Below the pieces are notes generated by a model. That model saw nothing but the letters and a program-made list of their open reading frames with translations, searched no databases and was not told the DNA's origin. A DNA stretch of 64,000 nt, from the NCBI GenBank assembly GCA_000002435.2, contig CM018793.1; one strand, 5' to 3'. This DNA comes from Giardia intestinalis. Lineage: Eukaryota. This document shows, piece after piece, positions 1-45,030 of the stretch; position 1 is the stretch's first letter; each line of letters opens with the position of its first letter. Position numbers and translations under genes: made by a program.

Positions 1-1895
1 ATCATATCGCTGCGGTAGAAGCCGTACTCTGTGATGTATTCAGAGATTTTCTGGTTCATGTTGCTAAAGTATGAAAGCCTGTCATCGTGCTCTATGGAGA
101 AGCCTGGCCACACTATTTTATAGTTGTCTATGTTCAAAAGAGTGACCATGTTAGTATTTGAAGAGGTCTCAAGACTCCTAAGGCCAATAACCAAGAACCC
201 CATAAGGCGCTTGCCGTAGAATGGAAATTCCGCGTAGACTGGTGTGGACATTGCTAGCACAGTTTCATTAGTCATCCAACCTGACTTGACGAGGGCAAGC
301 TTTATGCTATAGTGTTCTGGCCGTAGAAACTCTGATCCAATAAGGAGTTTGTGCCGATACCGATTAAGCAGAATGTTCCCTTGTGTGTTTGATCCAAATG
401 GTAAGTCGTAGTCTGGTGCGATAAGAGATGGTGTCACGCAGTTTATAAACTTAGACTTCTCCTCTGGCGGTAACTGGGACTTACAGTTTTCTACAATCTT
501 ACGGCAACGCTTGGAAACATCTCTGTCTGCTCTCCACGATAGTGTATAGTTAGACTCCTTGATGCATTGATAGAATGTAGAGCTACATCGTTCGGATAAA
601 ATCCGGTGTATCGTTATCATATCATCTAAATCAGTAACTTCTTGAAACAACTCTGCAGAGAAGAGCAGGGTTGTAAGATCCATGCACTGGATGTGCCCTC
701 GCATAAAGTTGGTAAAGTCTGTAAGATGCTTCTTAAGGTTTCTTGCAACTTGCTTACCATATGCATTTTCTGCTAGTACATCAGAAATCATTACAGAGTA
801 GTATGACAGATTATTGATCGAGCTAATGGCCGGGGTAGCATCTTCAACGATTCCGTAGCCAATATAGACAACTGATGTTGTTTTGTTCTTTATGTCTGTC
901 CCCACAAAGTCAGTAATAAGTGTAATGAGAGAATGGAGGGATACATAGTATCCTAGGTGTGAGGTTATTGGGTCAAAGTCTTGGATCTTCTTTAGTAGAG
1001 AGTTTAGAGTGGTAACAAGAGGCTCGGAACCTCCATCATTGATGACTTGTATCTCATAAGCTACAAAGGCTATACGTAGATTGACATTTAAGCTTATGGA
1101 GCTGGCATAAATGGAGGCCAAAAGCTTAATTTCGTTAAGCATCTCCACAGAAAGAAGCTCGGACCCGTCTAAGATCATGAGTATAGTATCTGTTTCAAAG
1201 TGTTGCCGTACAGATGAGAGTTGAAGGACATGTTGCTGATAAAGATCTTTTCTATACTGATAATTATCCGAAACGAATGAATTATCAGGACATGGATAGA
1301 TGATAGACATGTCATCTACAAGAGAATGGAAAGCAACAAAATCAGCCGTATTGACCGATTGATAAAGCTCCCTCAATTCGGCATAAAGGTTGTAGTAAGC
1401 GCTGATGTGCTTAGACGTCTCCACATTGGTATTAGTATCAGAAGAGACCAGAGCCACGTTCTGACAAACATCGGTATACTTCTTTTGTAGCTCAGATGGA
1501 ACACTGGTGCTCTCCATATGACAGAGGTTCTTCGGAGTCATTTCAACAAAGTCTTCTGACCGTTGAAGATAGATTCTCTTTTGCCTAGCAGATATTTGTG
1601 CATAGTTGCAGCTCTCTATAAGGTGTGAAACTTTTAGTTGAGCTCTGAGAAGATTGGCTTCAGAGCAATTTAAATTTAGAATATATTGAGTTAGAACGTG
1701 CGCATGAGACGTCTCAACAAGCACAGGAAGAACATCCGAAAGGACCTTGGCTTGGGAGGTCCCAACAATACTCTCCACCAATGTCTTATTGAATATCTTA
1801 TCGCTCATATCTCTTAGAACTTGTGTTTGAAAAAAGACAGCATCTTGATTGGCTGTGGCGTGCATGAGAAGAAACACCGCTGTAAAGAAGAGCAT
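1..1895 (-). CDS. Hypothetical secreted protein, partial (C-terminus lies beyond window start); N-terminal signal peptide MLFFTAVFLLMHATA, several N-glycosylation sequons
   Basis: Manual minus-strand translation from ATG (rc of cat at 1893-1895) reads open to position 1 with no stop. Hydrophobic N-terminus. AT-rich stretch upstream of the ATG. Absent from the ORF track only because it has no stop inside the window. Confidence 0.5.
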   Translation of the reverse strand, partial: MLFFTAVFLLMHATANQDAVFFQTQVLRDMSDKIFNKTLVESIVGTSQAKVLSDVLPVLVETSHAHVLTQYILNLNCSEANLLRAQLKVSHLIESCNYAQISARQKRIYLQRSEDFVEMTPKNLCHMESTSVPSELQKKYTDVCQNVALVSSDTNTNVETSKHISAYYNLYAELRELYQSVNTADFVAFHSLVDDMSIIYPCPDNSFVSDNYQYRKDLYQQHVLQLSSVRQHFETDTILMILDGSELLSVEMLNEIKLLASIYASSISLNVNLRIAFVAYEIQVINDGGSEPLVTTLNSLLKKIQDFDPITSHLGYYVSLHSLITLITDFVGTDIKNKTTSVVYIGYGIVEDATPAISSINNLSYYSVMISDVLAENAYGKQVARNLKKHLTDFTNFMRGHIQCMDLTTLLFSAELFQEVTDLDDMITIHRILSERCSSTFYQCIKESNYTLSWRADRDVSKRCRKIVENCKSQLPPEEKSKFINCVTPSLIAPDYDLPFGSNTQGNILLNRYRHKLLIGSEFLRPEHYSIKLALVKSGWMTNETVLAMSTPVYAEFPFYGKRLMGFLVIGLRSLETSSNTNMVTLLNIDNYKIVWPGFSIEHDDRLSYFSNMNQKISEYITEYGFYRSDM

Positions 1896-2630
1896 GCTCC
1901 GAAAGCTATATGATAACTAATGTAAGAAGCAGAAATGCGTTGGGGCTTTTTGAAAATGGCCCTACCCCGTGCCGGCCACGCGGCCTCTAGACCAGCGAGG
2001 CGAGGAGCTTCTTGATTCCTGGGCGCGCGCGGTAGCCATCAGACAGCTCGCGCAGCGGCGGAAACTGGTCCACGAGCTCCGGACACTCTGCGTCCGCATA
2101 ATACAGGACCTCCAGGACCGCGTAGTTCGAGTCGAGCGGTTCGAACGCCAGGCTCCGAAGGCTCAACACGTCTAGTTAGAATCCTGGTTTGTCGGTAGGC
2201 TGCAATGCACTCCGAGCGCGTCATCTCCACCCCCGTAGCCTGACTGCCTTTGGCAATGCTGCTAAATAGCTGGAAGTTCCTTACTTGATGCAAACATGCA
2301 GAGCGAGCGGTTTACATATCGGGAACTCTAGCTACTGGTTGGCTTTACAATGTGAATCACCTGCCCTGTGCATTTACAACTTCGCTTCTAGATTTTATTG
2401 CCAGAGGTTCAACTCCACAGGGCCCTACCTCCGTGTAAACTAGTGCAATGCTTCGTCGGAGAAGGGTACTTCAAGATATGTGCAAATAGATCCAAAGTTG
2501 TGACGTATTGATGTGAATTTGCTGTACACAATCTTGGGAATAACCTAGGTACGCTCTACTTCCAGTTGTAACTGGTTAACTAGCAGAATTCTCTTTACAT
2601 TTATAACATACTGGTAGCACAATCAACCAC

Positions 2631-2646
2631 TCTTTAAAATCACTGT
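2631..2646 (+). promoter_or_regulatory. AT-rich initiator-like element (tctttaaaatcactgt) immediately upstream of HCMP ATG
   Basis: Giardia promoters are short AT-rich elements within a few tens of bp of the ATG. This one directly abuts the start codon at 2647. Confidence 0.3.
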
Positions 2647-5600
2647 ATGCTGATTCTCCTGTATGCTACTGTATTCTTCGCCAGTGCATGCGGGACAGGA
2701 CCTGCATGTGTTAACGGAGACTGCGCCTACGGGGACGGAGCATACTTCTGCCAGTGCAGGCGGGGCTGGGCGGGGGCTGCGTGCGATGCTCCCCGTGCAG
2801 GGTTCTGCAGGGTAACTACTAATACTGGCAAGGCATCCACAGACAGGGCCGTCAACTACGCCTGCCTCGTTAACGAAACCGAATGCACAGGGTCGAGCAA
2901 GTGCACCTACTACGCGGGGGCGTACTCGTGCGACCCCTGTCCCGATGGCTTCGTGTCCTACGAGGGCGAGTGCCTGCCGAGGGGCTGCTTCAACACCGAC
3001 GACTTCTCAAACCAGGAGGCAACGAAGGCCCCCTGCAACGGCCGCGGCCGCTGCCTCCTGAAGGACCCCGGGCTGGCAGGGATGGATGCTGACGACTACG
3101 CGTGCGACTGCTACCCGATCTACCGCGGGAGCCTCTGCCAGTCGTGCGACGACGCCAACGCGATCGCTGCGGGAAGCTCTTCGTCTGATGCCCTCCCTAC
3201 GTGCAATGCGCGGGCCTGCCAGGACTCGGATGGCATCGTGTGCTCAGGCCAGGGAACGTGCATCCTCGACGTGGGCCTCGACCGCGAATCATATCACTAC
3301 CGCTGCAAGTGCAATGCTGGCTACACACGCGTTGGGCACAAGTGCGTCAGGACAGAGTGCGTGGCCACAATCGACGGGTCCCCGGTCGTCTGCGGGGGCT
3401 TCGGGAACTGCACAGATGAGGGCAATACCGGTACCTTCAAGTGCGTTTGCGATTCTAATGCAGTCCCGGTCGGTCAGTTTTGCACATATCCCGCGTGCAC
3501 AGACAGCGCTGCTACTGAGATCTGTGGTGGAGTGGGCGCCTGTGTGCGCAACGGGGCTGGCTATAAGTGCGATTGCCGAGGGCTTGCCACGGGCGACCTC
3601 TGTGATACTTGCACTCCTGGGAAATCCGCTCAGGTAGGCGACAAGTGCGTTCCAGTGGGGTGCCTCACCTCAAACAACCAGGAATCATGCAAGAACGGAG
3701 GAACATGCGTCAAGTCCGATGGCGAGTACCACTGCCGCTGCCCGGACATGCTCATTGCCGTCAGCGGAGAGTGCACGTCCCCCGCATGCATGGACGAGGA
3801 GCTGGGGAAGGTCTGCTCGGGACACGGTACGTGCAAGACGGACGATCTACGAAATATACAATGCACTTGTGGTCAGGACTATACTTATATCGCCCCGGGG
3901 CGCTGCATCCTAACAGCCTTGATGGACGGCGACCGAATCTGCAGCGGCCACGGCCACGTTAGCATCGACACCTCGGATCCTCCCACGATGACCTGCAGGT
4001 GCTCGTCGATCTACGAGGGGTCCAAGTGCGAGACCTGCAAGGCCTCTGTCGCCCAGGAGATCGAGGGCGAGTGCGTCCCAACCAAGTGCATTGTGGCACC
4101 CCAGCCCGGATCGCGAGCCACCACTCCCAGGGTCTGCGACGACCACGGCCAATACACGAAGTTCGGCGACCCGAGCGACCCGTTTGCCACGTGCACCCCC
4201 AAGGACCCCGACTCCGGGACCGTCTCCGCCTACAATGGCACCTTCCTTGCGAGGCCCGGGTGCGTGCATGTCAGCAAGGTAGACAGGACCAGGAGGTTTT
4301 ACTGCGGATTCCTGCAGGGACTGACAGACAACTTGCAGGAAGGCGTGGTAACGTGCAATACACAGAACGAGGGATCTGTGTCTGTTGAGACGTGCAATGG
4401 TTGCCCAGAGGGCTTTAAGCTTGTCCACTTCGGGGCAGAAGAGGGCTATAGAAAGACATGTATGCACGACAACTGCTACCACGGAACTGGCGCCAGCAGG
4501 ATGTGGTACGACTACTGCGGCGGGACCGGCGACTGCATCAAAGAGGGTGACACGTACAGGTGCGACTGCGGCCCCAGTGCCACTTGGAACGAGGGCCTGA
4601 AGGCGTGCGTCACCGAGGCGTGCAAGCTTGATAAAAAGCTCGCCGGCCCAGGGGCGCCCGAGTACTGCGCAGCGCCATCTAGCCTTACGCTCCACTGCAC
4701 CGTCGGCCGGGACGCGGCCTGGCAGTGCGATTGCCCCCAGGGCGACTACCTCACGTACAACAGGACGTGCATCCTGAGGAGCAAGAGCGCCAGCCCCACG
4801 ACTCATCGAGCAAGGGGGCTTTGCGGCGGCCCCGGGGCGGGCTTCCTGAGCGGCAGCGGGTCCTGCGTCTGCAACCCGGGCTTCCTCAAGATCGACGACA
4901 TGTGCTACAGCTATAACTGCTTGCCAGTTGGCGTGACATCTTCGGCTAGTCTGAAAGTTGATTCTCATGTCTGCTCCGGGAAAGGAATCTGCACGTACAA
5001 CCAGCTGACTGGTCGGTACGGCTGCGAGTGCGAAAGTGGCCTGGAGGCCTTCGGGGGTTACTGCACGCGTCCTGAATGTGTTGGGATAGTGATACATAAT
5101 GGAGAAATCAGGCACGTCGAGTGCAAGGTCTACGACGGGTCCGTGGGCAGCTGTACGCTAGACGCAAATACGAACACATATGCCTGTAGGTGTGGCGTCG
5201 GATACAAGGTTGCGTATGGCATTTGTGTCCACAGAGGGTGCATGCCGGACACCGTCTATTGCGGAGGAGACGCATTGGCTTCGTGTGTGAGAGGAGATGA
5301 TAGTCGCTACAGCTGCATCTGCTCTGAAGGCTACGAGCTGAGCGAGGAGCGAAACGAGCACGGGAACAAGGCCAAGTGTGTCCCAAGCAAATGCATGTAT
5401 AAAGCGTCCACAAGCAGCGCCGCTACCGAATGCAATGGCTTAGGGGCATGTAGCGGTGACGAGGTGCCTTTGTTAAAAAATAAGGAGTGCAGATGCATCG
5501 ATGGTGCAACCGAATATATGCTTAGAGACGCAAGCGGCGAGATGAAGAAAACATGCATGCTAGAAAAGTGCATCTCTCGTATGGATGGAGAGGTGCCAGT

Positions 5601-6012
5601 GATCTGTGGAGGCTCGGGTAGATGTGGACCTGGGGGGTGTATATGCGATCTGGGAACTGAGTTGGTTGGAAATACCTGTGTTGGTCTCAATTGCTTCATT
5701 AATACTAAGGATGCTGATGGACGAGTGACCAAATCGATATGTGGCGGTGACACGATTGGTGTGTGCACAAAGATAGCGTCGCACGGCGATCGTCGAGACT
5801 ACGCTTGTAAGTGCAAGGACCCGAGGCCTGACGGGTATGAAGAACTTGATGGGTTCTGTCTGCCAAAAGCTTGCATATTTGAAATCACAACCTTGACTAA
5901 TCAGCAGGTGAGGACGATGTGCGGTGGAAAGCAGTTTGGAACATGCGTTCTTAATGCTACTCAATCATCCAAGTCATACTGTAAGTGCATAAATCGATAT
6001 GACATTATTTAA
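2647..6012 (+). CDS. High-cysteine membrane protein (HCMP), N-terminal part: signal peptide plus ~1100-aa Cys-rich ectodomain (CxxC/CxC, EGF/furin-like repeats); ends at in-frame TAA
   Basis: ATG at 2647. Signal peptide MLILLYATVFFASACG. Extremely Cys-rich with repeated C-x2-C and G-x-C motifs. No TM and no CRGKA tail, so HCMP rather than VSP. TAA at 6010-6012. Confidence 0.75.
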   Translation: MLILLYATVFFASACGTGPACVNGDCAYGDGAYFCQCRRGWAGAACDAPRAGFCRVTTNTGKASTDRAVNYACLVNETECTGSSKCTYYAGAYSCDPCPDGFVSYEGECLPRGCFNTDDFSNQEATKAPCNGRGRCLLKDPGLAGMDADDYACDCYPIYRGSLCQSCDDANAIAAGSSSSDALPTCNARACQDSDGIVCSGQGTCILDVGLDRESYHYRCKCNAGYTRVGHKCVRTECVATIDGSPVVCGGFGNCTDEGNTGTFKCVCDSNAVPVGQFCTYPACTDSAATEICGGVGACVRNGAGYKCDCRGLATGDLCDTCTPGKSAQVGDKCVPVGCLTSNNQESCKNGGTCVKSDGEYHCRCPDMLIAVSGECTSPACMDEELGKVCSGHGTCKTDDLRNIQCTCGQDYTYIAPGRCILTALMDGDRICSGHGHVSIDTSDPPTMTCRCSSIYEGSKCETCKASVAQEIEGECVPTKCIVAPQPGSRATTPRVCDDHGQYTKFGDPSDPFATCTPKDPDSGTVSAYNGTFLARPGCVHVSKVDRTRRFYCGFLQGLTDNLQEGVVTCNTQNEGSVSVETCNGCPEGFKLVHFGAEEGYRKTCMHDNCYHGTGASRMWYDYCGGTGDCIKEGDTYRCDCGPSATWNEGLKACVTEACKLDKKLAGPGAPEYCAAPSSLTLHCTVGRDAAWQCDCPQGDYLTYNRTCILRSKSASPTTHRARGLCGGPGAGFLSGSGSCVCNPGFLKIDDMCYSYNCLPVGVTSSASLKVDSHVCSGKGICTYNQLTGRYGCECESGLEAFGGYCTRPECVGIVIHNGEIRHVECKVYDGSVGSCTLDANTNTYACRCGVGYKVAYGICVHRGCMPDTVYCGGDALASCVRGDDSRYSCICSEGYELSEERNEHGNKAKCVPSKCMYKASTSSAATECNGLGACSGDEVPLLKNKECRCIDGATEYMLRDASGEMKKTCMLEKCISRMDGEVPVICGGSGRCGPGGCICDLGTELVGNTCVGLNCFINTKDADGRVTKSICGGDTIGVCTKIASHGDRRDYACKCKDPRPDGYEELDGFCLPKACIFEITTLTNQQVRTMCGGKQFGTCVLNATQSSKSYCKCINRYDII

Positions 6013-6030
6013 ATAACAAATGGAAAGTGT

Positions 6031-7701
6031 ATGAAGAAAACCTGTCTTAGCGACTCTCTTTCTGGAGGTCCGGAGGGATACGTTGAATGTTCTGGGCATG
6101 GGAAGTGTATAGGGGATCATATTGTGGGGTACTCGTGCAATTGTGACGAAAATTATCAAACGGTTGCAGACGATCGCCGTTATTTGTGCGTACCGGCTGT
6201 CTGTGTTGTATCAGAGACAAATTCCAGTACTATATGCAACGGAAGAGGGACCTGTCAGTTCAAGACAGACCCAGGAAAGTGCGAGTGTAGGCCTGGGTAT
6301 GATGGTACCAAATGTGAGACGTGTGCAAATGGCTACAAGGAACACACAAATGCGCAATGCTACCTCAATGGCTGTCCGGCAGACAATTGTGGCACGGAGG
6401 AAAATACTAGCGTAGGAGCTTGCCAACTTAGCGGAAACAGTTTTGCTTGCGTCTGCGTCAACTCGAGCTTCGTCGTTGACAGTGCTAGCAAGAAGTGCCG
6501 AAAATCCAGATGCGTTTGGACGGATCCATACGATCAGACAGAAAAAACGTGCTACGGCATGGGTACGTGCAATGATAACGGCGAGGACACTGGGGCGTGT
6601 GTTTGCAACCCCGGGACAACCCTAGTCGGGACAAACATCTGTGTTTATAGCCAGTGCATCTCGGATGAGAACGGCTCTAAAACAGTGTGTAAGGGGCGCG
6701 GAGTATGCATCGCGAGCCTTGTGGCTGGCCAGGGAATGTGCCAGTGCAGTGATCAGTATCGCACAGACAAGAAGACCGGCCAGTGCTTTGTCAAGGAGTG
6801 CTTCGGGGCGCATGCAAGCATCTCTGCAGAGGTATGCGACGGTGGTGGAACGTGTAATGAAAATACTAAGAAGTGCGATTGTAATTCTGGTTTCCAAAAT
6901 CTTCCTGGCCAGAATGGCTGCGTGCACAGCAATTGTATTTCGTCGGACCAGAAGCTCTGCAGCGGCTTCGGCGCCTGCGAGAATAACAATGGCAATTACA
7001 TGTGTCTGTGTGCTAACTATTACACCCTGGTTGGAAGGGACTGCATCCCCACAAGGTGTCTCAAGGACGGGAAAGTCTGCAACGGCGGCGGCACGTGCTC
7101 CGGCGAGGGATTCTCTGCTACCTGCAGCTGCAGCCAGGGCTGGACCCTCCACGGGACCCTCTGCTACCCATCGGCCTGCGTTTCCGGCGGGACACTCTGC
7201 GGGGGGAATGGCAACTGTCCACTTTCCACAGATAGTACATGCGAGTGCAAGTATGGGTATGAAAGTGTTCTTGACCAGCTCTGCATCAGCAGCCAGTGCG
7301 TCCAGCGCGGCACCGACGGCACCGTGACGATCTGCGGGGGCAACGGCAGGTGCGTGTCTGAGAACGGCGTAAAGCCCACTTGCATATGCGATGAAGGCTT
7401 CTCTCTCACAAGCGACTTCGTCTGCGGAGTCCCTGCTCCATCTAACAAATCCTCGGGTGGCACGACGGCTGCGATCGTGGTCGTCGTCCTCCTCGTCCTT
7501 GCTGCGGTGGCCGGCTTCCTTGTCTGGTGGTTCGTGATACGGCCCAGGAGAGGCGGCCCACTGAGGGAGCGCGCCCCGCAGAAAGGCTCCAAGTCTTCCA
7601 GGTCCAAGCTCAAGCGGCAAGCAACTTCTAACGCATCACTCCACGCTGACGTGCCCCTGCTGAGTCAGCTGTCTGGTGCCAACTCCAGCATCCAGCTCTA
7701 G
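6031..7701 (+). CDS. HCMP C-terminal part: Cys-rich repeats, single TM (AAIVVVVLLVLAAVAGFLVWWFVI) and basic cytoplasmic tail; same frame as 2647..6012
   Basis: Starts 18 nt after the TAA and in the same reading frame. No signal peptide of its own. C-terminal TM plus RPRRGG... tail typical of type-I HCMPs. Confidence 0.7.
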   Translation: MKKTCLSDSLSGGPEGYVECSGHGKCIGDHIVGYSCNCDENYQTVADDRRYLCVPAVCVVSETNSSTICNGRGTCQFKTDPGKCECRPGYDGTKCETCANGYKEHTNAQCYLNGCPADNCGTEENTSVGACQLSGNSFACVCVNSSFVVDSASKKCRKSRCVWTDPYDQTEKTCYGMGTCNDNGEDTGACVCNPGTTLVGTNICVYSQCISDENGSKTVCKGRGVCIASLVAGQGMCQCSDQYRTDKKTGQCFVKECFGAHASISAEVCDGGGTCNENTKKCDCNSGFQNLPGQNGCVHSNCISSDQKLCSGFGACENNNGNYMCLCANYYTLVGRDCIPTRCLKDGKVCNGGGTCSGEGFSATCSCSQGWTLHGTLCYPSACVSGGTLCGGNGNCPLSTDSTCECKYGYESVLDQLCISSQCVQRGTDGTVTICGGNGRCVSENGVKPTCICDEGFSLTSDFVCGVPAPSNKSSGGTTAAIVVVVLLVLAAVAGFLVWWFVIRPRRGGPLRERAPQKGSKSSRSKLKRQATSNASLHADVPLLSQLSGANSSIQL

Positions 7702-8780
7702 CCCGCTGCCCGCAAGGTGTCGGTATTGGTAAGTCGACGGCGCGGATCTGCATACGAATGTAAATTGAAACGTAAGAGACGGGCCGGTTAGTGCTTAGAA
7801 CTGTCGGCGTGTTTTGCACGCTTGTCTGGGAACGGGATCGAGAGCGACTACTATAGTCCAGATGCAAGGTATAGGCGGAGGCCTTACTGCAGTACCTGCT
7901 CCCTGTCCTCAGGCAGAGGGACTCCTCGGACCAAGCCCTCCGCCACGTGGTCGTCGCATCCTATGTGTGCGCCTCTGTGCTCCTGTACGAGGGGCTCGTC
8001 CTGGGGAGGCTGCACTATATCGCAAACGAGTGTGCGGGCGGACGGGCGTTCCTGGTGCCTCAGACGACACCCTTCAGAGAGGTGGCCCTGGACCGACGCC
8101 TCGACAGACCGAAGCATCACCCCCAAGTGTGTTGTGCAGATGGACCAGCCCACACGTCACTGAGCCAGACACACTGCACAGAATGAGCGTCGACATGATC
8201 TCGTACTGGCTGACGGACCATCCACAAGAGCGCACTGCGATCATGAGCAGAGGGATGGGCCTCTCCCCTGATACCACCGCATGGGAGTACTCCATCGGCA
8301 TCCACGAACGCGTACTATGACTCCAGGATAGAGGCGCACGGGGAGCGCACCCCCGACAGCAGGGTCGATGGTCCACGTCATGGGGAGACGAAGAGGCACC
8401 CCGAGGAACGGGGTAGACACCCGGGGTCATAGCGTATCCCATCTTCGTCATGGAGCACCAGGGCCCGGGCCACGTGGAGACCAGATCGCCGCAACAGACG
8501 CAAGACCCTGAATAGCAGGTGCCCACCAGTGCCAGACGATAGTTGACTCCGATGGGCCAGAGGAAGGGAGGAACCCTAGAGGTAACGTGAGGAGCAGCGG
8601 CTTCCGGGGGAGCTGGGGCATAGGAGTTCTCCCGCCCGGATCGAGGGCGCCTGATCTTCGGACGCTGGGGCTGGACCCCGGACGGCGAGCGGGAGCCCTG
8701 CCCAGGGCGGTGGCGTTGCAGGGAGATTTACTCGGACAGCAGCTGCAAACTAACCTTGGTAAACAGAGTAAATGAAGCAA

Positions 8781-8800
8781 CTTTAAGAAAAACTCCATTC
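8781..8800 (+). promoter_or_regulatory. AT-rich initiator-like element (ctttaagaaaaactccattc) upstream of dynein ATG
   Basis: A-rich tract directly before the first in-frame ATG at 8801. The track ORF begins at a TTG at 8756. Confidence 0.3.
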
Positions 8801-11800
8801 ATGCAAATGCATCAAGCCCGTCACCCCCCGGCAATTCTCCCTGACATAGCGTGCGTTTCTGACCAAGCGCCCATAGGTGTGTCTTCACAGGCCGCCTACA
8901 ATACTGATTCTATGAACGTCGATATTCCTACTTCATTACAGCCAGGGAAACAGCTCCACATTGCTAAGCACAACAGTGTTCTCCACGCTAATATTGCTTT
9001 AATTACAATGATGCTCCAGGAAGCTGGCGCCAGTCCGGAGTTTATTCAGGAGCTGACAAGGTTGAAGCTTCCCCACGCTCGCAGAGAGCCATTTATCGAA
9101 ACCCACATAGATGGAGCTATGACTTCTATTTCCTCTATACTTCCACGACCCAGTGTTTTCGGATATAGCCTTGAGTTCTATGATAAATACGATGACCTTC
9201 TGCAGTTGTCTAATAGGGTTCTCAGTGGAGAAATCTTACATGCTACTATGTATAAGCGCGACATCAGCTCTGATAGTTCACACATCGATTTATCCAATTA
9301 CGCCGTCTATGAGGACTACTCTTTATTTCTAAAGCACTTAGAAACCACTTATGCTATTGAAAATGTCTGTGTTATTGGTTTTAATGAGTCTGAACGGAAG
9401 TTTCTTGTGGCACCAGAAAGTATTTTTGGTGATGGTTCAAATCCGCCTTCAGGAGAGACATTAAGAGGGTCAAGCTATTTGTGCGCTCGCCTTATGCTAA
9501 AGTTTTCTACTACTGACCATCCTTTAGACAGAGATTCTATCTTTTTTAAGCGACTTTTTGAGGCTCATAGGCTCAAGGCGACCGTCGAGCGCTCTTATAT
9601 TTTGCACACGTTTATTACTGCTCTTATTAAGTCTATCCAATACATCGACTCGTTCAGCAGGGGCGAGCTTGGCAGATCGATTACGAACATTCCTCTCTTA
9701 CCAATTATTAAGGCACTAAGATTGAGCCCTGCTCTTATTGCACGTACGGGTTGCGAGGTACAAATAATTCGTGGGATATCCCCTGGCCCAGAGTTTTTTG
9801 AAGATCTTCTCATTAAGTATTTTGCCAAGAACGTAACCATTCAGCAAATCCTAAAGAATAATGTCTTTTACCCGCTTTTAGACTCTCTTCTCACAGATGC
9901 AGAGGTGGACTACAAGCGTGTGCATATCCTTAATTCACTTGGACGCTGCCGTCTTCAAAATGCAGACCTCGACAGGTTTCTTCTAAAGTATGGTATTGAT
10001 AGGCAACTAACAGACTGCGAGTACTTTTTGAAATGTTACAATCATAAGCATGTGTATCCAGTTCTTCAACATAGTACTTCTCGCGGAGGCGTCATTAATA
10101 TGCGAACTGTGCTTGTTGGAACTTTCCCAATCACTGAGCGACAGGTTCATTATAGTGAGAACCAGTCAGCCCATCAGGAGCTCGCATTTAATAGCACCTC
10201 GGATACCCAAGCAACATTAGAGTCTATTGCTTGCCATAAGGAAGCATTTATGAAGGCACGTCTTCATCTAGAAAAACATCACTACTTTTACTCTACCTCT
10301 CTACAAGGTGCCATGTTTCGTTTCAGACTAGATTGTACAGATTTTTTTGGGAGCAATCTCGTGCTGTTTCATCCAATTGTCTTAGGAAGCTCAGCTTGCG
10401 ACTTTGTACGGCATGTCCTCGCATCTGGTGCCCTTGATTCGACGCAGAAGAGCTCTTTTTACTCAAAGATTCTAGACATTTCCGTATCCGACAAGCACTG
10501 CTTACGTAAACAAGACCATGAGATTGCGGATCTCTACCAAAACTTTCTTGAGGAACAGAAGACATTTCACGAAGATCTTCAAGCTACACATTCTCAAGAA
10601 CATGTCAATTTTCGCCGCTTTGGAGATGGAATCCTGTATTCCGATGGGCGTTACGAGTACTATGTGGGAAGACAGCGTATTTTACTGCCTGAAAGTATAA
10701 CTAGTGGCGATTATGTCAGTTGTATTAGAAACATTGCTGAGCATCAGCAGGCTATTTTTCGTCAGCGGGGAGAGAATGTCCTGTCAATTTCTCTCATACA
10801 TAGCGCCACTGATATAGATACCCATATTTACCGAGGCGAGAGCTTCAGTTTCTTTAGGGGCTGGAAGAGCCAATGTCTCTTTGACTCCTTGAATTCTTTT
10901 GTCACTACTATCTATGAAACCATCGACGCAATTTTTCTGCCCCGACTAGCACAGTATCTTTTTCCATTAATGGCTCTCCAGGAAGTAGAGCGTCGTCATG
11001 CCTCCAGAATCTGTGATGAAATTTTTACACAGGCCTTAACAGAAACAATCGATCACACATATGATTTGTTTCTTGAAGCATTAAAAGATAAGCGAAGAAC
11101 ACCTGACTTGAGCTTCATGAATCCAGATGGGTTTATAAACATAAGCTTAACGCAGCAGAAGCAGCAAGGGGGGTGTGGTAACACTTTGCAGCATGCCAAC
11201 GTTCCCCCAGCAGATACCTTACCTAATACTTATATGGATTCCTCTATTGCGACTAGCAAGCTACAAGCATCAATGCCACCCATACAGCTCAGTGACCTTG
11301 AAGTTGTGGGCAAGGATATTATTATTAGGAAGGGAAATAGAGCCTTTCTAGACCCACGAAATAACACGCTGACGCGGCTAGTTAAGGCTATTTTGTTTGA
11401 AATAGAAAAGCTGGCTAACAGAGGAATGAGTTTGTTGGAATATGGCGTTTTTAACTATGAGAATTGGCCCAAAGATGCACTACTCAAGTCATCTACCCCA
11501 ACGTTCCTTTACAACTCTAAGGAGAAGATCAAAGAGCTTATTCTCAATATGATTCACCTGGGTTTGCACAGCGCCGGTACGCTCCCGAAGTATTTGCTCG
11601 AAGTTCCTGTCACTTATCCCATGGATTCGGTCCCCTTGGTTGAAGTTGTTGTTCAGTTAGCTGTCAACCCTGTATCTTCTGACTACTCCGAGTCTATAGG
11701 GCTTTATGCATGTGCTTATGAGGAGACATCTAAAGCTGTTTCCAAATGGTATCAGCAAAACCTCTATCAGTTGGACCTCCTCTTTGAGCAAGTGGCTATC

Positions 11801-14800
11801 AGCTCATTTTTAAAAGAAAGCGAGATAGAAGATCAGCAGCAAGCATCTCCTACCGAGCTCCCAGAGAAGTACACTGTCTTAGAATGCTATAAGGATAAGT
11901 ACACAACAACAGGATATGGCACTAATAGATACCTCCGCAACGATACTGCCTTCCAAGTTTTCGAAAAGAATCCAGAGCCAGACCACAGTCGTACTGATCT
12001 TTCTGTAACATCAGTGACCCAAACAACCTGTCCCAGCGACAATCTTCAGAGCACAATGGCTGAACTGTTAGAAGAGACCATTATCACTGCTAATGATTGC
12101 TTTGTATCGGTTACTGATAGCACGCTACCACACTTTACTTTGGAGCCATCAAAATCAGAATTTATGACCAAGCTTTCTGGACTATTCGACTGTTACGATA
12201 CTTTTGCTTCGCAGTTTGTGTCATTCTATGATAGCATTTCTGTAGATCCAGAAAGGAAGCGCCTAAAACCGCCAGAGTATGCATATGGGTTTAGATATGT
12301 CAAAGAGAAGCGCCACACATGTCTCGACTATACAGAATATTGCTACCAACTGGCCGAAGTTGTTCTAGAGATTTGCAACATAATTTGCTCCGCTATCTTC
12401 AATCGAACGTTGGATGCTAAATTGAAAATGTGGGCAGACATCATCTCCAATGCCATGGACCTTCCCTACTATAACCTGTATCACTCCACAAGCGAAACCA
12501 GCATTGAAGACTTTGACTATGTTCCGTTGCGACCTGTGGGCGTCACATCTTCTTCATCTAATGTTGTGGATAAGAAGGATCATCAATTTGAGGAAGTTGA
12601 CCTTGATATTATCCGAGAAATAACAAGTCCTCTTCAGATCCAAGAGCTTTCGCGAAAGGTGCGTAAAGGTCAGATAGATGTCACAGATAATTTCTTGCAT
12701 AAAATCAAAGCATACTATTATACATCAGAGTATTGGGCAACAGTGAAAAGCACCTTTGATGATAGAATGAGCATCAATGCGTTTCTGAGTCTTGTTGGAA
12801 AAAAATCTGAGGCAACCATGAAAAGAACGGAAGTGCAGGAGCTTATTTCTACCGAGGTTGTTAAAGCTATTATTTATTACCGCAGCATGCAGATACTGGT
12901 CCAAGAGCATCTTTTCCCAGATACTATACGTTACGGATTTATTTGTATCACAACGACGCCAGCTAAGCAGGCAATGGAGCACCGTATTAGTGCAATCCTA
13001 TGTGCATTAGGATCGATTGTAACTGCTCGTGCATGGACACTAATAGAGTATAGCAATAAGATTCTTCAAGCAATACAGATTCAATGTTCGTATACCCCAT
13101 CTGTACCAGTAGAGTGGTATATGCTTAGAAGGTTTGTTAAGTTCTACATAAAGCCGCTTCAGCACTTGATACATGATTTGAACAACGAGGCAGTATCGTA
13201 CTTGAATAACATTCTTACTGTGCTACCTCTAAAGGAGCTTGCCCATATTAAGCCACAGTTTGATCTCAGAATTCATTTAGAAGACCCAGAAAACTGGGCA
13301 GCGGTCATTAAGCGACTGTCTGATCCCGCAGCTGGGGTGCCAGATGAATCAAGGTATGAGTCAGACGTTATCTCCATGGCTAGGACAACACAGTTTTCAT
13401 GGATATTTAATAGGTTTATTGGGCTACGCATGCACACAGATGCGATCTATCATCCATACAAACTGGCGTCTCATCTTTATTCTAGTAGGTCGCCCTTTGG
13501 TCTGAATAAGCTAATTACACAGTCTCTTATTCCATCTACTGAGGGAATCATATCCCAGAGCAAGTACGATCTTCTTATGAACTTGGAGGCGCATCGTGAG
13601 GATCTTACCAAAAGACAGAGTGATCTCCTTGAGCGAGTCGAGGCATTCAGCAAACGAATCCCCGCTCACTTCAATTTTAATGAGGCGAGCCAAGACGTTA
13701 GCTACAAATTCTTTAAGGACGGAGAGGCCCTGCAAGCTGAGCTAGCAAATCTACAACAAGAATCATTGAACTTTATTAATGACGAAATTAGCCTAGAACT
13801 GGCTCCAGGCACATTTCCAGTTATTGATTTGCTCCAGCCCCGCATAGATATGATCCACAGATTCTGGACAATAACGTATGAGCATTGCACAATTCTTCCA
13901 GTTTGGTTTGACTGCCTTCTCTCTGACCTCGCAGCCAAGTATTCTGGAAGACTAAACGAGTTCAAAGAAACAGTTTTTAACAAATATGTCCAGGTTGCAG
14001 ATGTTTTAAGTCTCATTCAAACTGCAGCCCGCAAGGAAAAGTCTAAGACCATGCTTGCAAGCTTAGCAAATGGTGAGAAAATACTTCTAAAGGTGCAGTC
14101 CCACTTAGCGTGGTTTAAACACTACTCCCCTGTCATCGTCGCCCTTTTATCACCGGCACTAAAACGTCGCCACCTAGACCAACTGCGAACGAAAGGAATC
14201 TTTCTAAATCTAGCAGAGCATACTGTTTCCAAATTAGTAGAGCGCAAAGTCTTTCTGGATCTCTCAGAACCTAGCATTCAAGATAAGGGCTTTTCACACA
14301 GAGCAAAACTTATTCTAGAAGTCATAGAACACGCGCAAAAAGAGCACGATATTGAGCTTTCGTTTGGAAAGATTGAAGCAATCTGGAAGACAGTTTCTTT
14401 TGAATTTAAAGTTTTGTCAGGAGATCGCTACAAAAGCTACTCAGCACTTTATTCCACACACAGAGCAGATGTACACAATGTGCCGGCCGTGCATCCACTT
14501 TCGATTGCAAAGGCCAAGGTTCTGGATGAACATGGCCGCGAGCTTTGCCTGAACTTATCCACCAGTGGCTCTAATGACCGTGTACATTCCCAGTTAGACC
14601 TCGAAAAGCGCCCTTATGTGATATCAAATCTGGGATTTATCTTACAATTATATCAAGATCATTTTCTCTTGACCAACAAGCTTTTGCAATCACAACACGT
14701 CACCCCAATGCAACGCGTGATCCAACAGTTTACTGAGAAGCAGCTTATCGTCAAGGAAATCCTTCTATTGATACAGGACATTCAGGATAGCTGGCTTCGA

Positions 14801-17800
14801 CTGTATCCCATCTACGTTGGCAAGTACACGGAGTTCTTTGGCCACAGAGCCACTGAGTTTATCAATCTTACAATCTGCATGCAAACAGTGTTTTTAGGGT
14901 TTATCAATAATTGCAACGTGCAAGGCAATATAACGATCGCCGGGAATCTCAACCAAGTAGATAAGCAAATCGAATTGGGGTTAAGGGATGGCACAATAAA
15001 GTTTTCAGAGGTGCCGCCCAATCAGCTCCTGACGCCTCTTCTTTTTTACTACAAGGCGTTTCTGGATCACTTGAATGCGCGTATGTACTCTCTTGTGGAC
15101 ACTAAGCGCCAAGGATTTTTTAGGTTCACTTTTATGAATACTAATGAAATTGTCAAAATACTCTCTGCTTTACCTGGAAGCGCAGACGCTGTCCTTACTC
15201 CGCTTCTTCATCTATACAGCCTTTCTGACTATTCAATAGAGAAACACAACGAACAGCTTTTACTAACTACTGTTTTCTCAAAAAGTGGTGAGACCATCCG
15301 ACTAGCGGACCCTGTAGATGTCACAAAAGAAGTAGATGTGTGGCTGACCACCTTTGATGATGTGTTCCGCAAAACTATGCGCAAGCTCTTTTATGACCTG
15401 TATGTCGATGTTTTTGTTGATAAGATGGAGCCCAGTGTGGCCTTTCTCAAGTACCCTTCCTGTACCGTTGGGCTGTTTCTTAGGGTCGAGTTCACGCATC
15501 AAATGGACGCGATCTTTGCACAAACAGTTTCGGAGCTAGACACACATCATATGATACTAAGCCTCCTCGATGACATCAACCATAGAATCGTCTTTTTCAA
15601 GCAGCAATTTCTCGCCTGTTCTAACAAGCTCCTCTATAACAACATTCTTGTTGAATTGATGTACTTCAGTAATATCGTCTCAACTATATGCAAGCATCCT
15701 TTGGCTAGGGATAAGAGATTTATCTATTACAGAATCTATAAGTATCGTATTGTTCCCCTCGCTGATGATGCAATTAGTCTTTTGACCAAGACGCTGAGCG
15801 CACTAGGTGATAGCTCTATCAACTCACTCGGCAGTACGTCTCCAGATCAGGATCTGCTTCTCTCTACCAAGGTCATTCACAGAGATATGAATCCATCAGA
15901 CTTTGATGTCCAGATTTCGTGCCTTGGAAACTCCATGCTTTACCGATTCGACTATATTCCGCCCACCACTAGATCGATAGTGACAGAACCAGTTGACCAA
16001 GCAGCTACGTTTATCTTTTCGGCATTTGCTTCGCGATCTGTTGGGGGTTATATCAAGGGAGAGACTGGGAAGACTGAGGCTGTCAAGCACATCGCCTATT
16101 GCCTCGGCTACAAGCCATATATTATCAATCCGACGTATACTGTCCATTTTTCTGAGACTACACTTCACCATATGATGCTCACAGCATGCGCTTTCGGCCT
16201 TTTGATATGCTTTGAGGATGTAGAGAAATTCACAAGTTCGTTGCTAATTACGCTCTCGCGAAATTTGGGTCAGGTATATGGCATTCTTAATTCGTATACA
16301 TCAATTCAAACACTGGCAAACTGTGCTTCCTTACTCCATGACAGCAGTAACCACATGAAGATAGCATTGCCGGCGGAGAATCCAGTCGGTGAAGTGTTCT
16401 TGCATCCTTCTGCGATCTTCTTCCTGACAACCAACACACCGCTTCCACATAGTTTCAATAGGGTTGTTAAACCCTTTAAGTGTCATCTCACAGAGTCTGC
16501 AATCTATCACATAATCCGAACATACATGGATATCGCAGGCCTTACAGAAATTGAATCCGTAACATCACAACTCATGCACATCATGGGAGCTATTAAGCGT
16601 CTTTTTGCCCCATTTTTCGGCCTTAGACATATCAAAGACATTATCAGCGAGATGCTTCTTCTCTCTCAATATACAGGAAGACCCATCAAGAAGGCATTCG
16701 CTGAGCAACCTGCTGCATCTCATTCTGATAATAGTAATGTCACCAATGAAAGGGCCAACACAGGACGTGCAGAACCTACTCTGGAACAGCGAGAACCTAT
16801 CATCAGTGCATCCAAGTTAGTCAACTTAGCAATCAGAACAGTAGTCAGTCCTCTTTTAGCACCAGCTCATCGTGTGCCTTTTTATAACATGCTTGATGCA
16901 GAGTTTGGGGCGATAGCCCTCCCACCCATTACTGAGACGCTGCTGGATGCCGTGAGAGAGATATACATGGACCCGGCATTTTGTCAATCCGTTTATAGAG
17001 AGACAGGCTTAGTTTGTCCTTGCAGTGATCTGGATATTTATGCACAGTCTATCCTTTATACCAACAGTTCTGTCTATCAGGCAGCTCAGACAGAGTTTAT
17101 AACAGACATTAAGTCCTTCATAGAAGTTATAGACCACAATTACGGAACAGTTGTGGTTGGAAACCATCTTTCCGGCAAGACGAGCTTTATCACAATCTGT
17201 TCACAAGTATACGCAAAGCTTTGCGACTATGTTGTTAACTTGCGATTTATTAACTTTTCAAGCATATCTTATCATGAGTTTTTTGGATACTATTCTTTTA
17301 GTGACTGGATTGATGGGATTATTGCTCGCCTTGTTTCTCGTGCGGAGCTGCACGGTTCAAACGAAGTGTCATGGATTATTTGTGACGGTGTGGGAAAGAT
17401 GGATCACCTGGGAAGTATATTGAATGGCACGATGTTCCTACCAAACGGCGAAATTTTACGTTTACCGTCGAACATGAAGTTCATTTTTGAAGTGACCAAT
17501 CTTATGCTGGTTCCAGAAATATTTAGTGCTAAATGCGGATTGTACCAACTGGGAAGACATGACTACACCGAAGGTTACTTACGAAAGCTCGCTTACTCGC
17601 CCATAGTGACAGGCGAGTCAACCTTGAACCCTCTTGAGATGCGTTTGCATGCTGCCTTGCAAGAATCACTTGGGGAGATACCGCGTCCCCGTGGAATTAC
17701 CCTTTATACAGAGGAATCGCTGGATGGCAGCGAAGAGTTCGATTCCTCTCTTAAGCCCTGTGCATCCGAAATTATACTTACTCGGCTTCGTCAGCTGGTG

Positions 17801-31492: not shown

Positions 31493-31668
31493 CCGTGTTT
31501 TTGGGTTTAGATTTAGACTAATCGGAAATTGTTGGCTTGAGTGCTTCGACGGCTTAGCAACGTAGTGGACACATCCGGTTACCAAGTGTGTGTAATCGCG
31601 CGTAATTGTGAGAACACTCAGTAGCAGAGAATCGGTGCAGACGAACAGGTTGGGCTTGAATAGCAGCG

Positions 31669-44412: not shown

Positions 44413-45030
44413 ATGTTATCAGTAATCCCTTTGATATGCACGATAGTGCTAGCAAAGAACATGGCAAAGGCAACGGACTGCAACCCACCGATAGACGGCT
44501 GTAGCACGTGCACCGGCACGGGTGACGGACAGACCTGCACGGGCTGTACGGCGGGCGACCAGAAGGTCCAGCCGAACGGAAAGGGCTGCATAGCGGGATG
44601 TCCCCCCAACTCGGACGACGTAGGAGGGATCTGCACTTGCAAGAGCACGCACAAGCCGTCAGACAATGGGCAGACGTGTGTCCCGAAAACGGACTGCAAC
44701 CCACCGATAGACGGCTGTAGCACGTGCACCGGCACGGGTGACGGACAGACCTGCACGGGCTGTACGGCGGGCGACCAGAAGGTCCAGCCGAACGGAAAGG
44801 GCTGCATAGCGGGATGTCCCCCCAACTCGGACGACGTAGGAGGGATCTGCACTTGCAAGAGCACGCACAAGCCGTCAGACAATGGGCAGACGTGTGTCCC
44901 TTCTAATACCAACAAGAGTAGCGGCCTTTCTACCGGCGCCATCGCGGGCATCGCCGTGGCCGCTGTCATCGTCGTCGGGGGGCTCGTCGGCTTCCTCTGC
45001 TGGTGGTTCCTCTGCCGGGGCAAGGCGTAG
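44413..45030 (+). CDS. Variant-specific surface protein (VSP)-like, 205 aa, with 2 copies of a 72-aa Cys-rich repeat
   Basis: Signal peptide MLSVIPLICTIVLA. CxxC-rich units. Canonical VSP C-terminus ...NKSSGLSTGAIAGIAVAAVIVVGGLVGFLCWWFLCRGKA. AT-rich initiator before the ATG. Confidence 0.85.
   Translation: MLSVIPLICTIVLAKNMAKATDCNPPIDGCSTCTGTGDGQTCTGCTAGDQKVQPNGKGCIAGCPPNSDDVGGICTCKSTHKPSDNGQTCVPKTDCNPPIDGCSTCTGTGDGQTCTGCTAGDQKVQPNGKGCIAGCPPNSDDVGGICTCKSTHKPSDNGQTCVPSNTNKSSGLSTGAIAGIAVAAVIVVGGLVGFLCWWFLCRGKA
44473..44904. repeat. 2 x 216-bp tandem repeat inside left VSP
   Basis: Unit encodes TDCNPPIDGCSTCTGTGDGQTCTGCTAGDQKVQPNGKGCIAGCPPNSDDVGGICTCKSTHKPSDNGQTCVPK. Confidence 0.8.

What the first reader, a model, noticed from the sequence alone, without database searches (positions are those of the whole stretch)
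6004..6036. Single in-frame TAA splits a signal-peptide half and a TM-anchor half of one HCMP
Both ORFs are in frame 1. The translated sequence ...CKCINRYDII*ITNGKCMKKTC... keeps the Cys-rich pattern across the stop. Neither half alone is a sensible membrane protein. Possibilities: a very recent pseudogenisation, programmed stop-codon readthrough, or a base-call error (TAA vs e.g. TAC/CAA).
Basis: seen in the sequence. Interest (0 to 1): 0.6.

Follow-up and report, generated by a model that had tools for sequence, protein, structure and literature searches.

The report
Annotated Giardia surface-protein pseudogene, one stop
A single C-to-T change (CAA to TAA) has cut one large cysteine-rich Giardia surface-protein gene in two; the reference genome already marks this locus as a pseudogene, so the finding is real but ordinary.

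Summary
A single in-frame TAA at window 6010-6012 separates a 1121-codon ORF with a signal peptide (2647..6012) from a 556-codon ORF with the only transmembrane segment (6031..7701). There is no other stop in 1685 codons.

The window is Giardia intestinalis WB. The downstream ORF is exactly XP_001706685.1. [quoted passage not shown] A 2022 preprint lists it as a Cys-rich type I pseudogene with an inner stop codon.

All twelve aligned family members from isolates WB, DH, P15 and GS read through this position (Q in 7, K in 4, R in 1). The nearest relatives have Gln. The DH gene has CAA, and across 270 nt around the site the C>T is the only nucleotide difference.

dN/dS is as low downstream of the stop as upstream, so the lesion is recent. 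Nothing supports programmed readthrough: the stop is not conserved, the context is UAA-A, there is no downstream structure, and the window uses the standard code. A base-call error is unlikely, because the split appears in both the 2007 annotation and the Illumina-corrected 2020 assembly.

One by-product: the gene is a patchwork of segments matching different paralogues.

Verdict: already known, low interest.

The parts
2647..7701 (+). [quoted passage not shown] 5055 nt, 1685 codons including the internal TAA and the terminal TAG.
   Evidence: The 399 nt of the published GL50803_00114161 sequence that the look-up displayed match the window exactly from 2647, and the published length is 5055 nt. 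Full-length homology to family members of about 1680 aa.
2647..2691 (+). N-terminal signal-peptide-like segment, MLILLYATVFFASAC.
   Evidence: The same N-terminus is scored as a signal peptide for paralogue GL50803_00113213 in Table S1 of bioRxiv 10.1101/2022.03.07.483299.
2647..6009 (+). Upstream half: 1121 codons of Cys-rich EGF-like ectodomain, no TM segment.
   Evidence: Pfam EGF-type hits. No hydrophobic 19-mer in this half.
6010..6012 (+). The lesion: TAA where relatives have a sense codon. The inferred change is CAA to TAA, a single C>T transition at 6010.
   Evidence: The DH gene (L001) has CAA, and this is the only nt difference within window 5869-6138. The alignment column is Q 7/12, K 4/12, R 1/12. 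WB paralogues P0004, P0024 and P0025 read ...RYDIIQITNGKC....
6031..7701 (+). Downstream half, formerly annotated as the separate 556-aa 'High cysteine protein' XP_001706685.1. It starts at an internal Met that most of the family shares.
   Evidence: Exact match. Ten of the 12 aligned relatives have M at this position and one has I. Pfam EGF_2 at 1.2e-17.
7468..7536 (+). Single transmembrane segment, AAIVVVVLLVLAAVAGFLVWWFV.
   Evidence: Hydropathy scan and coordinates. A near-identical segment is annotated as the TMD in paralogues.
7537..7698 (+). 54-aa cytoplasmic tail IRPRRGG...SSIQL. It is not CRGKA, so this is HCMP/CRMP type and not a VSP.
   Evidence: An identical tail is listed for a 1681-aa WB family member in Table S1, and P0007 has the same tail.
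3457..4854 (+). Mosaic segment aa 271-736: 86-100% identical per 60-column window to WB paralogue XP_037902125.1 (P0003). Within it, aa 450-620 is 100% identical to P0003, while the other members are 37-82% identical there.
   Evidence: Sliding-window identities.
5740..6615 (+). Mosaic segment aa 1032-1323, which contains the TAA: 91-100% identical to WB paralogue XP_001704496.1 (P0004) and 83-98% to DH ESU36698.1 (P0002).
5212..5736 (+). Mosaic segment aa 856-1030, closest to P15 EFO64062.1 (81-95%). WB and DH members are 45-73% identical here.
   Evidence: The P15 locus is also the only one that shares upstream flank with the window.

Best explanation
This is one member of the Giardia intestinalis WB 'HCMP EGF-like' family of type-I membrane proteins, each about 1680 aa. 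A recent C>T transition turned a Gln codon (CAA) into TAA at codon 1122. Translation from the intact start and signal peptide should stop there. At most it yields a 1121-aa ectodomain fragment with no anchor. The 556-codon remainder has no signal peptide and is not expected to be made. It was called a gene in the 2007 annotation only because an internal Met lies 7 codons after the stop. The locus is therefore a young unitary pseudogene, or a truncation allele, and the current reference annotation already records it as such. Shown here: the stop, the ancestral sense codon in relatives, the absence of any other lesion, equal dN/dS on both sides, the existing pseudogene annotation, and low sense transcription. 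Inferred: that the product is non-functional, and that the base is fixed in all four genome copies.
For: (1) Identity. The downstream ORF is XP_001706685.1. The displayed 399 nt of GL50803_00114161 match the window exactly from 2647, and the published length of 5055 nt equals 2647..7701. [quoted passage not shown] (2) All 12 aligned relatives from WB, DH, P15 and GS are open at this column (Q7/K4/R1). The nearest have Q. P0024 and P0025, seen separately, also read Q. (3) The DH gene has CAA. In the 270 nt spanning codons 1075-1164 the C>T is the only nt difference. (4) There is one lesion in 1685 codons. dN/dS downstream versus upstream is 0.22 vs 0.19 (DH P0002), 0.33 vs 0.22 (DH P0008) and 0.145 vs 0.136 (P15). 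The absence of a second nonsense codon bounds neutral divergence since inactivation at under about 1.4% for the whole gene, or 4.4% for the downstream half alone, at the 95% level. (5) The split appears in two independent sequencing efforts. The 2007 annotation starts a protein at the first ATG after the stop. The 2020 assembly is PacBio plus 100x Illumina SNP correction (PMC7000408). (6) In trophozoite clones, sense TPM is 2.0-5.6 and antisense TPM is 41-95 (Table S9). (7) A second family member in WB is also disrupted, by a frameshift, so gene decay recurs in this family.
Against: I could not inspect reads, so a minority C allele in the tetraploid genome cannot be excluded, and neither can a polishing artefact. 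No proteomic or ribosome-profiling data were available for this locus; the peptide table (S13) shows VSP, CRMP and SCRP sheets and no pseudogene sheet. dN/dS shows no relaxation downstream. That fits a recent event, but it would equally fit continued function or ongoing homogenisation by gene conversion. The promoter-like AT-rich element, the signal peptide and weak sense transcripts all persist, so a truncated secreted product may be made.
Confidence: 0.83

Rival explanations
1. Functional truncation. The 1121-aa signal-peptide-bearing fragment is the real product: a secreted cysteine-rich protein of the 'SCRP' type. Only the anchor part is dead.
For: The start, the signal peptide and the AT-rich element TTTAAAAT lying 8-15 nt before the ATG are all intact. 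Sense transcripts are low but not zero. The 2022 preprint recognises 16 signal-peptide-only Cys-rich proteins in WB.
Against: The same preprint argues that such SP-only entries may themselves be pseudogenes. dN/dS is not higher downstream than upstream in any clear way, so nothing shows selection acting on the upstream half alone. Antisense signal exceeds sense signal roughly 10-30-fold. Giardia has a UPF1-dependent decay of reporter mRNAs that carry premature stops (PMC2572189).
Confidence: 0.08
2. Artefact or heterozygosity. The TAA is a base-call or polishing error, or only one of several alleles in the tetraploid cell, and an intact CAA copy exists.
For: At least three WB paralogues (P0004, P0024, P0025) carry the identical local protein sequence with Gln, so short reads could be mis-assigned among copies. 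Reads could not be examined here.
Against: The split is already implied by the Sanger-era protein XP_001706685.1, which starts at the first ATG after the stop. It persists in the de novo PacBio assembly after 100x Illumina correction, which required at least 50% read support, and the locus is annotated as pseudo there. By inference, mis-mapped paralogue reads would push the call towards CAA and not towards TAA. No intact version of this particular mosaic gene appeared in the protein search; the best full-length hit is 79% identical.
Confidence: 0.06
3. Programmed stop-codon readthrough or recoding. UAA is decoded, as Gln, often enough to give a full-length membrane protein.
For: There is a single stop, at a position that is Gln in the nearest relatives. 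From my own knowledge, near-cognate decoding of UAA usually inserts Gln, Tyr or Lys, and the sister diplomonad lineage (Hexamita, Spironucleus) reads TAA and TAG as Gln. The downstream frame is fully open.
Against: The stop is absent from all 12 aligned relatives. The 270 nt around it are otherwise identical to an intact DH gene, so no dedicated signal has evolved. The context is UAA-A, and the same context terminates the RING-protein ORF 27389..31585 in this window. The 100 nt after the stop fold no better than shuffles, z = +0.31. The window's ten long ORFs hold 13,866 sense codons, all Gln codons counted are CAA or CAG, and TAA, TAG and TGA all serve as terminators, so the code is standard. 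A full-text search found no paper reporting readthrough in Giardia.
Confidence: 0.03

Closest known systems
[quoted passage not shown]
   Same: It is this locus. The 399 nt of published sequence available match exactly at the 5' end, and the length is the same 5055 nt. It is listed as a Cys-rich type I pseudogene with an inner stop codon.
   Different: Nothing differs. What is added here: the ancestral codon (CAA), the single-difference 270-nt block, the dN/dS comparison and the mosaic map.
XP_001704496.1 (P0004, 1685 aa) and XP_001707627.1 (P0025, 1687 aa), WB HCMP EGF-like, 4.02-Mb chromosome
   Same: Same architecture and almost the same length. P0004 is 91-100% identical over aa 1032-1323, and both carry the identical junction peptide ...CKCINRYDII-Q-ITNGKCMKKTC....
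   Different: Both are intact, with Gln at the stop position. P0004 is only 40-68% identical over aa 391-1030.
XP_037902125.1 / XP_001704265.1 (P0003 / P0018, 1691 aa), WB HCMP EGF-like
   Same: P0003 is 86-100% identical over aa 271-736 (95-100% in all but one window) and is the best overall hit at 79%.
   Different: Intact. Only 46-53% identical around the stop (aa 1089-1263).
ESU36698.1 DHA2_153045 (P0002, 1688 aa), G. duodenalis DH (assemblage AII)
   Same: It falls in the same 90% cluster as the downstream ORF. It has CAA where the window has TAA, and the surrounding 270 nt are otherwise identical.
   Different: It is not a positional orthologue, because its flanks (Peptidase_C48 and ankyrin genes) do not match the window. 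Its N-terminus and tail match WB XP_001705950.1 (P0007) instead.
EFO64062.1 (P0005, 1674 aa), G. lamblia P15 (assemblage E)
   Same: It is the only relative that shares upstream flank with the window: L003 9819-10000 aligns to window 2467-2646, and L003 8858-9195 to window 1934-2233. It is also the closest match over aa 856-1030. It is the best candidate for a positional homologue.
   Different: Intact, with AAG (Lys) at the stop column. The downstream flank is not shared.
GL50803_00113268 (420 aa) plus XP_037902367.1 (1238 aa), WB
   Same: Another member of the same family annotated as two pieces: an SP-bearing N-terminal piece and a TM-bearing C-terminal piece.
   Different: That one is broken by a frameshift, with an out-of-frame tail after ...CRCPDML, and not by a nonsense codon. 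It is still annotated as two protein-coding genes.

Membership tests
Giardia HCMP / CRMP, 'EGF-like' subgroup | N-terminal signal peptide | tested here: met
   MLILLYATVFFASAC at aa 1-15. The same N-terminus is scored as a signal peptide in paralogue GL50803_00113213. No dedicated predictor was run here.
Giardia HCMP / CRMP, 'EGF-like' subgroup | At least 4% Cys with CXC/CXXC motifs, and EGF-like domains | tested here: met
   11.2% Cys in both halves. Pfam EGF, EGF_2, EGF_Teneurin and EGF_laminin hits.
Giardia HCMP / CRMP, 'EGF-like' subgroup | Single C-terminal TM segment followed by a tail that is not CRGKA | tested here: met
   TM at aa 1608-1630, then a 54-aa tail IRPRRGG...SSIQL.
Giardia HCMP / CRMP, 'EGF-like' subgroup | One uninterrupted ORF joining the signal peptide to the TM segment | tested here: not met
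   TAA at codon 1122. The locus is therefore a pseudogene of the family and not a functional member.
Unitary pseudogene by nonsense mutation | Homologues are intact at the disabled position, and the ancestral sense codon can be inferred | tested here: met
   12 of 12 aligned relatives are open at this column, and the DH gene has CAA.
Unitary pseudogene by nonsense mutation | Relaxed constraint or further lesions downstream | tested here: inconclusive
   No further lesion. dN/dS downstream is about equal to upstream. This fits a very young pseudogene, but it does not by itself prove loss of function.
Unitary pseudogene by nonsense mutation | No full-length protein is made | not testable with these tools
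   The held data contain no peptide or ribosome-profiling information for this locus. Only RNA levels are available: sense TPM 2.0-5.6.
Programmed stop-codon readthrough | The stop codon is conserved among orthologues or paralogues | tested here: not met
   0 of 12 aligned relatives have a stop here.
Programmed stop-codon readthrough | A leaky context (such as UGA-CUAG or UAG-CARYYA) or a stimulatory 3' structure | tested here: not met
   The context is UAA-AUAACA. The fold z-score is +0.31. The flanking sequence is identical to that of an intact gene.
Hexamitid-type code (TAA/TAG = Gln) | In-frame TAA or TAG is common inside genes, and TGA is the only terminator | tested here: not met
   The window's long ORFs hold 13,866 sense codons with TAA, TAG and TGA only at their ends, and every Gln codon counted is CAA or CAG.

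The most novel reading that the evidence does not exclude
The TAA-bearing copy may not be simply decaying. It is a patchwork of tracts that are 91-100% identical to at least three intact paralogues on two chromosomes. One reading is that it takes part in ongoing segmental gene conversion within the HCMP EGF-like family. In that case it would act as a silent donor or acceptor reservoir, as has been proposed for VSP pseudogenes. It could be repaired by conversion from a CAA-bearing paralogue, or it could spread its stop to one. A weaker add-on is that basal near-cognate Gln decoding of UAA would regenerate the exact ancestral protein at trace level.
Probability: 0.15. Interest if true: 0.35.

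Novelty: already known. Interest (0 to 1): 0.1.

Why it matters
It matters little beyond annotation hygiene. The old 556-aa 'High cysteine protein' entry (XP_001706685.1, still present in derived sets such as EukProt) is the tail of a broken gene. It should not be counted as a separate family member or used as a 'High cysteine protein' exemplar. The case also shows how young some Giardia surface-protein pseudogenes are, here a single C>T. It shows too that one-to-one orthologue comparison is unreliable in this family, because the copies are mosaics and sit in non-syntenic regions.

Tried and rejected
- A 176-aa junction-spanning protein query found nothing. The intact DH protein (P0002) that contains the junction is not a cluster representative, which may be why (inference). 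The full-length query worked.
- Exact-product look-ups of the WB proteins (P0001, P0003, P0004) returned no contigs. I therefore could not obtain WB paralogue DNA or a second WB assembly, and DH and P15 loci were used instead.
- The upstream 1121-aa ORF is not in the protein collection as an exact sequence.
- Neither DH relative is syntenic with the window. The 'orthologue comparison' thus became a family-wide comparison plus the P15 locus, which shares only upstream flank.
- Literature searches for XP_001706685 and GL50803_114161 found no paper. No paper on readthrough in Giardia was found. The one Trichomonas readthrough preprint mentions Giardia only in connection with trans-splicing.
- Reinitiation at ATG 6031 was considered and rejected. 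The Met is an ordinary residue shared by most of the family, the product would lack a signal peptide, and reinitiation after a 1121-codon ORF is not expected in eukaryotes (general knowledge).
- RNA editing was considered and rejected, because none is known in Giardia (own knowledge).
Full report
**Observation**

Window 6010-6012 is TAA, within ...AAT CGA TAT GAC ATT ATT TAA ATA ACA AAT GGA AAG TGT ATG AAG.... The mechanical ORF list gives 2647..6012 (+, 1121 aa, ATG) and 6031..7701 (+, 556 aa, ATG), both in frame 1.

Translating 2647-7701 gives 1685 codons with a single internal stop...CKCINRYDII*ITNGKCMKKTC.... Both halves are 11.2% cysteine. The N-terminus MLILLYATVFFASAC looks like a signal peptide. 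The only strongly hydrophobic 19-residue stretch is AAIVVVVLLVLAAVAGFLVWWFV at aa 1608-1630, in the downstream half, followed by a 54-aa tail that is not CRGKA. Pfam finds EGF-type domains in both halves.

**Identity of the locus**

The 556-aa downstream ORF is an exact match to XP_001706685.1, 'High cysteine protein' of Giardia lamblia ATCC 50803 (WB).

[quoted passage not shown] The 399 nt of that entry shown to me match the window exactly from 2647, and 5055 nt is exactly 2647..7701.

So the current RefSeq annotation (UU_WB_2.1) already treats the two ORFs as one pseudogene. The same preprint argues that most former 'High cysteine proteins' lacking a signal peptide are pseudogene fragments.

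**What relatives show**

A search with the read-through translation found nine full-length 'HCMP EGF-like' proteins of 1665-1711 aa, at 63-79% identity and 99-100% coverage. They come from WB, DH (assemblage AII), P15 (E) and GS (B). Two shorter P15 proteins of about 1320 aa were also found.

In a MAFFT alignment of the window protein with twelve of these relatives, the stop column holds Q in seven, K in four and R in one. None has a stop. The closest relatives around the site all read ...CKCINRYDII-Q-ITNGKCMKKTC.... These are DH ESU36698.1 and WB XP_001704496.1 from the alignment, plus XP_001707627.1 and XP_037902367.1 inspected separately.

At the DNA level the DH gene has CAA. Between codons 1075 and 1164 (window 5869-6138, 270 nt) the C>T at 6010 is the only difference between the two sequences. 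The lesion is therefore a single CAA to TAA transition in an otherwise conserved coding context.

The Met that starts the '556-aa ORF' is an ordinary residue: ten of the twelve relatives have M at that position and one has I.

**Age and selection**

There is no second stop and no frameshift in 1685 codons. Nei-Gojobori dN/dS was computed against three relatives whose DNA I could fetch. The table gives the upstream half against the downstream half.

| Relative | dN/dS upstream | dN/dS downstream |
|---|---|---|
| DH P0002 | 0.19 | 0.22 |
| DH P0008 | 0.22 | 0.33 |
| P15 P0005 | 0.136 | 0.145 |

The downstream half thus carries the same history of purifying selection as the upstream half.

The gene has 646 possible single-base changes that would create a stop. 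The absence of a second one bounds neutral divergence since inactivation at about 1.4% at the 95% level, or 4.4% if only the downstream half is free to drift. This fits a very recent event.

**Is it an error?**

I could not see reads. However, the split appears in two generations of data. The Sanger-era protein starts at the first ATG after the stop. The 2020 assembly was built de novo from PacBio reads and then corrected with 100x Illumina data, changing a base only where at least 50% of reads supported the change (PMC7000408). That assembly still carries the stop, and the locus is annotated as pseudo there.

By inference, reads mis-mapped from paralogues would push the call towards CAA and not towards TAA, since the paralogues with this local sequence have Gln. 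I put error or heterozygosity at about 6%.

**Is it recoding?**

Every testable feature of programmed readthrough fails.
- The stop is not conserved in any relative.
- The flanking 270 nt equal those of an intact gene, so no signal has evolved.
- The context is UAA-A. The same context terminates the RING-protein ORF 27389..31585 in this window.
- The 100 nt after the stop fold no better than shuffled sequence, z = +0.31.
- The window's ten long ORFs hold 13,866 sense codons. TAA, TAG and TGA occur only as terminators, and every Gln codon counted is CAA or CAG. The standard code applies, and not the hexamitid code.
- Full-text search found no report of readthrough in Giardia.

Basal near-cognate decoding would restore Gln, but only at trace level (general knowledge).

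**Expression**

In the preprint's stranded RNA-seq of trophozoite clones, the locus has sense TPM of 2.0-5.6 and antisense TPM of 41-95 (Table S9). Giardia has a UPF1 homologue, and reporter mRNAs with premature stops decay in it (PMC2572189). A truncated, secreted 1121-aa fragment remains possible, because the start, the signal peptide and an AT-rich element (TTTAAAAT) just upstream of the ATG are intact. Nothing positively supports a function for it.

**Mosaicism and synteny**

Sliding-window identities show the gene is a patchwork.

| Residues | Closest relative | Identity | Notes |
|---|---|---|---|
| aa 271-736 | WB XP_037902125.1 (P0003) | 86-100% | Within it, aa 450-620 is 100% identical to P0003; other members 37-82% there |
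| aa 856-1030 | P15 EFO64062.1 | 81-95% | WB and DH members 45-73% |
| aa 1032-1323 (includes the stop) | WB XP_001704496.1 | 91-100% | |
| aa 1325-1437 | DH DHA2_154341 | 95-98% | |
| aa 1499-1673 | WB XP_001705950.1 | 93-97% | |

Neither DH gene is syntenic with the window. Only the P15 gene shares upstream flank, roughly 700 nt in two blocks. This agrees with published statements that HCMP genes sit at synteny breaks and in non-syntenic, fast-evolving regions (PMC3091692). It means a strict orthologue test is not available, and the family-wide comparison stands in for it.

A second WB family member is also broken, by a frameshift. It is still annotated as two genes, GL50803_00113268 (420 aa) and XP_037902367.1 (1238 aa).

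**Verdict**

The best explanation, at about 0.83, is a recent CAA to TAA nonsense mutation in one member of the HCMP EGF-like family. This is already recorded in the reference annotation as pseudogene GL50803_00114161.

The rivals are a functional secreted truncation (0.08), an error or heterozygosity (0.06), and readthrough (0.03).

Novelty: already known. Interest: low (0.1). The only mildly new material is the ancestral-state reconstruction and the mosaic map. These leave open, at about 15%, a reading in which the copy takes part in family-wide gene conversion as a silent reservoir.

Noticed in passing
window 47689..54570 (-) and 44413..45030 (+): A convergent (tail-to-tail) pair of VSP genes about 2.7 kb apart, with identical N- and C-termini (MLSVIPLICTIVLAK... 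/ ...FLCWWFLCRGKA). One is 2293 aa, built from 31 perfectly identical copies (100% matches) of a 216-nt / 72-aa unit. The other is 205 aa with only 2 copies of the same unit. This array explains the GC-rich (0.63), strongly AT-skewed block at 48-54 kb and the long ORFs on both strands there.
   Followed up: partly
window 2647..7701, versus P0003, P0004, P0005, P0007 and P0008: The pseudogene is a segmental mosaic. Successive tracts of about 110-470 aa are 91-100% identical to different paralogues (WB, DH, P15) and only 40-70% identical to the others. This points to repeated gene conversion or recombination within the HCMP EGF-like family.
   Followed up: partly
WB proteins P0026 (GL50803_00113268, 420 aa) and P0024 (XP_037902367.1, 1238 aa); not in the window: A second member of the same family in WB looks split by a frameshift. 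P0026 runs out of frame after ...CRCPDML, and P0024 starts at an internal Met. Their GenBank ids are adjacent (KAE8305956 and KAE8305957). Both are still annotated as separate protein-coding genes, and the preprint counts the 420-aa piece as a secreted Cys-rich protein.
   Followed up: partly
window 1934..2233; L003 8858..9195: An unannotated segment upstream of the pseudogene is 75% nt identical to the segment upstream of the P15 HCMP EGF-like gene EFO64062.1 (tblastx up to 82% over 67 aa on one strand). It could be a conserved small ORF or a regulatory remnant. No gene is called there in P15.
   Followed up: no
window 8756..25519 (+): A 5587-codon ORF lies directly downstream of the pseudogene. 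It has no Pfam hit in its first 1415 or last 1505 residues, and its GC content (about 0.43) is much lower than that of the HCMP and VSP genes.
   Followed up: no
window 1..2646: About 2.6 kb upstream of the pseudogene is low in GC (0.42 over 1-2000) and contains only ORFs of 84 aa or fewer. That is unusually gene-poor for the compact Giardia genome and fits the non-syntenic, rearranged setting of HCMP genes.
   Followed up: no
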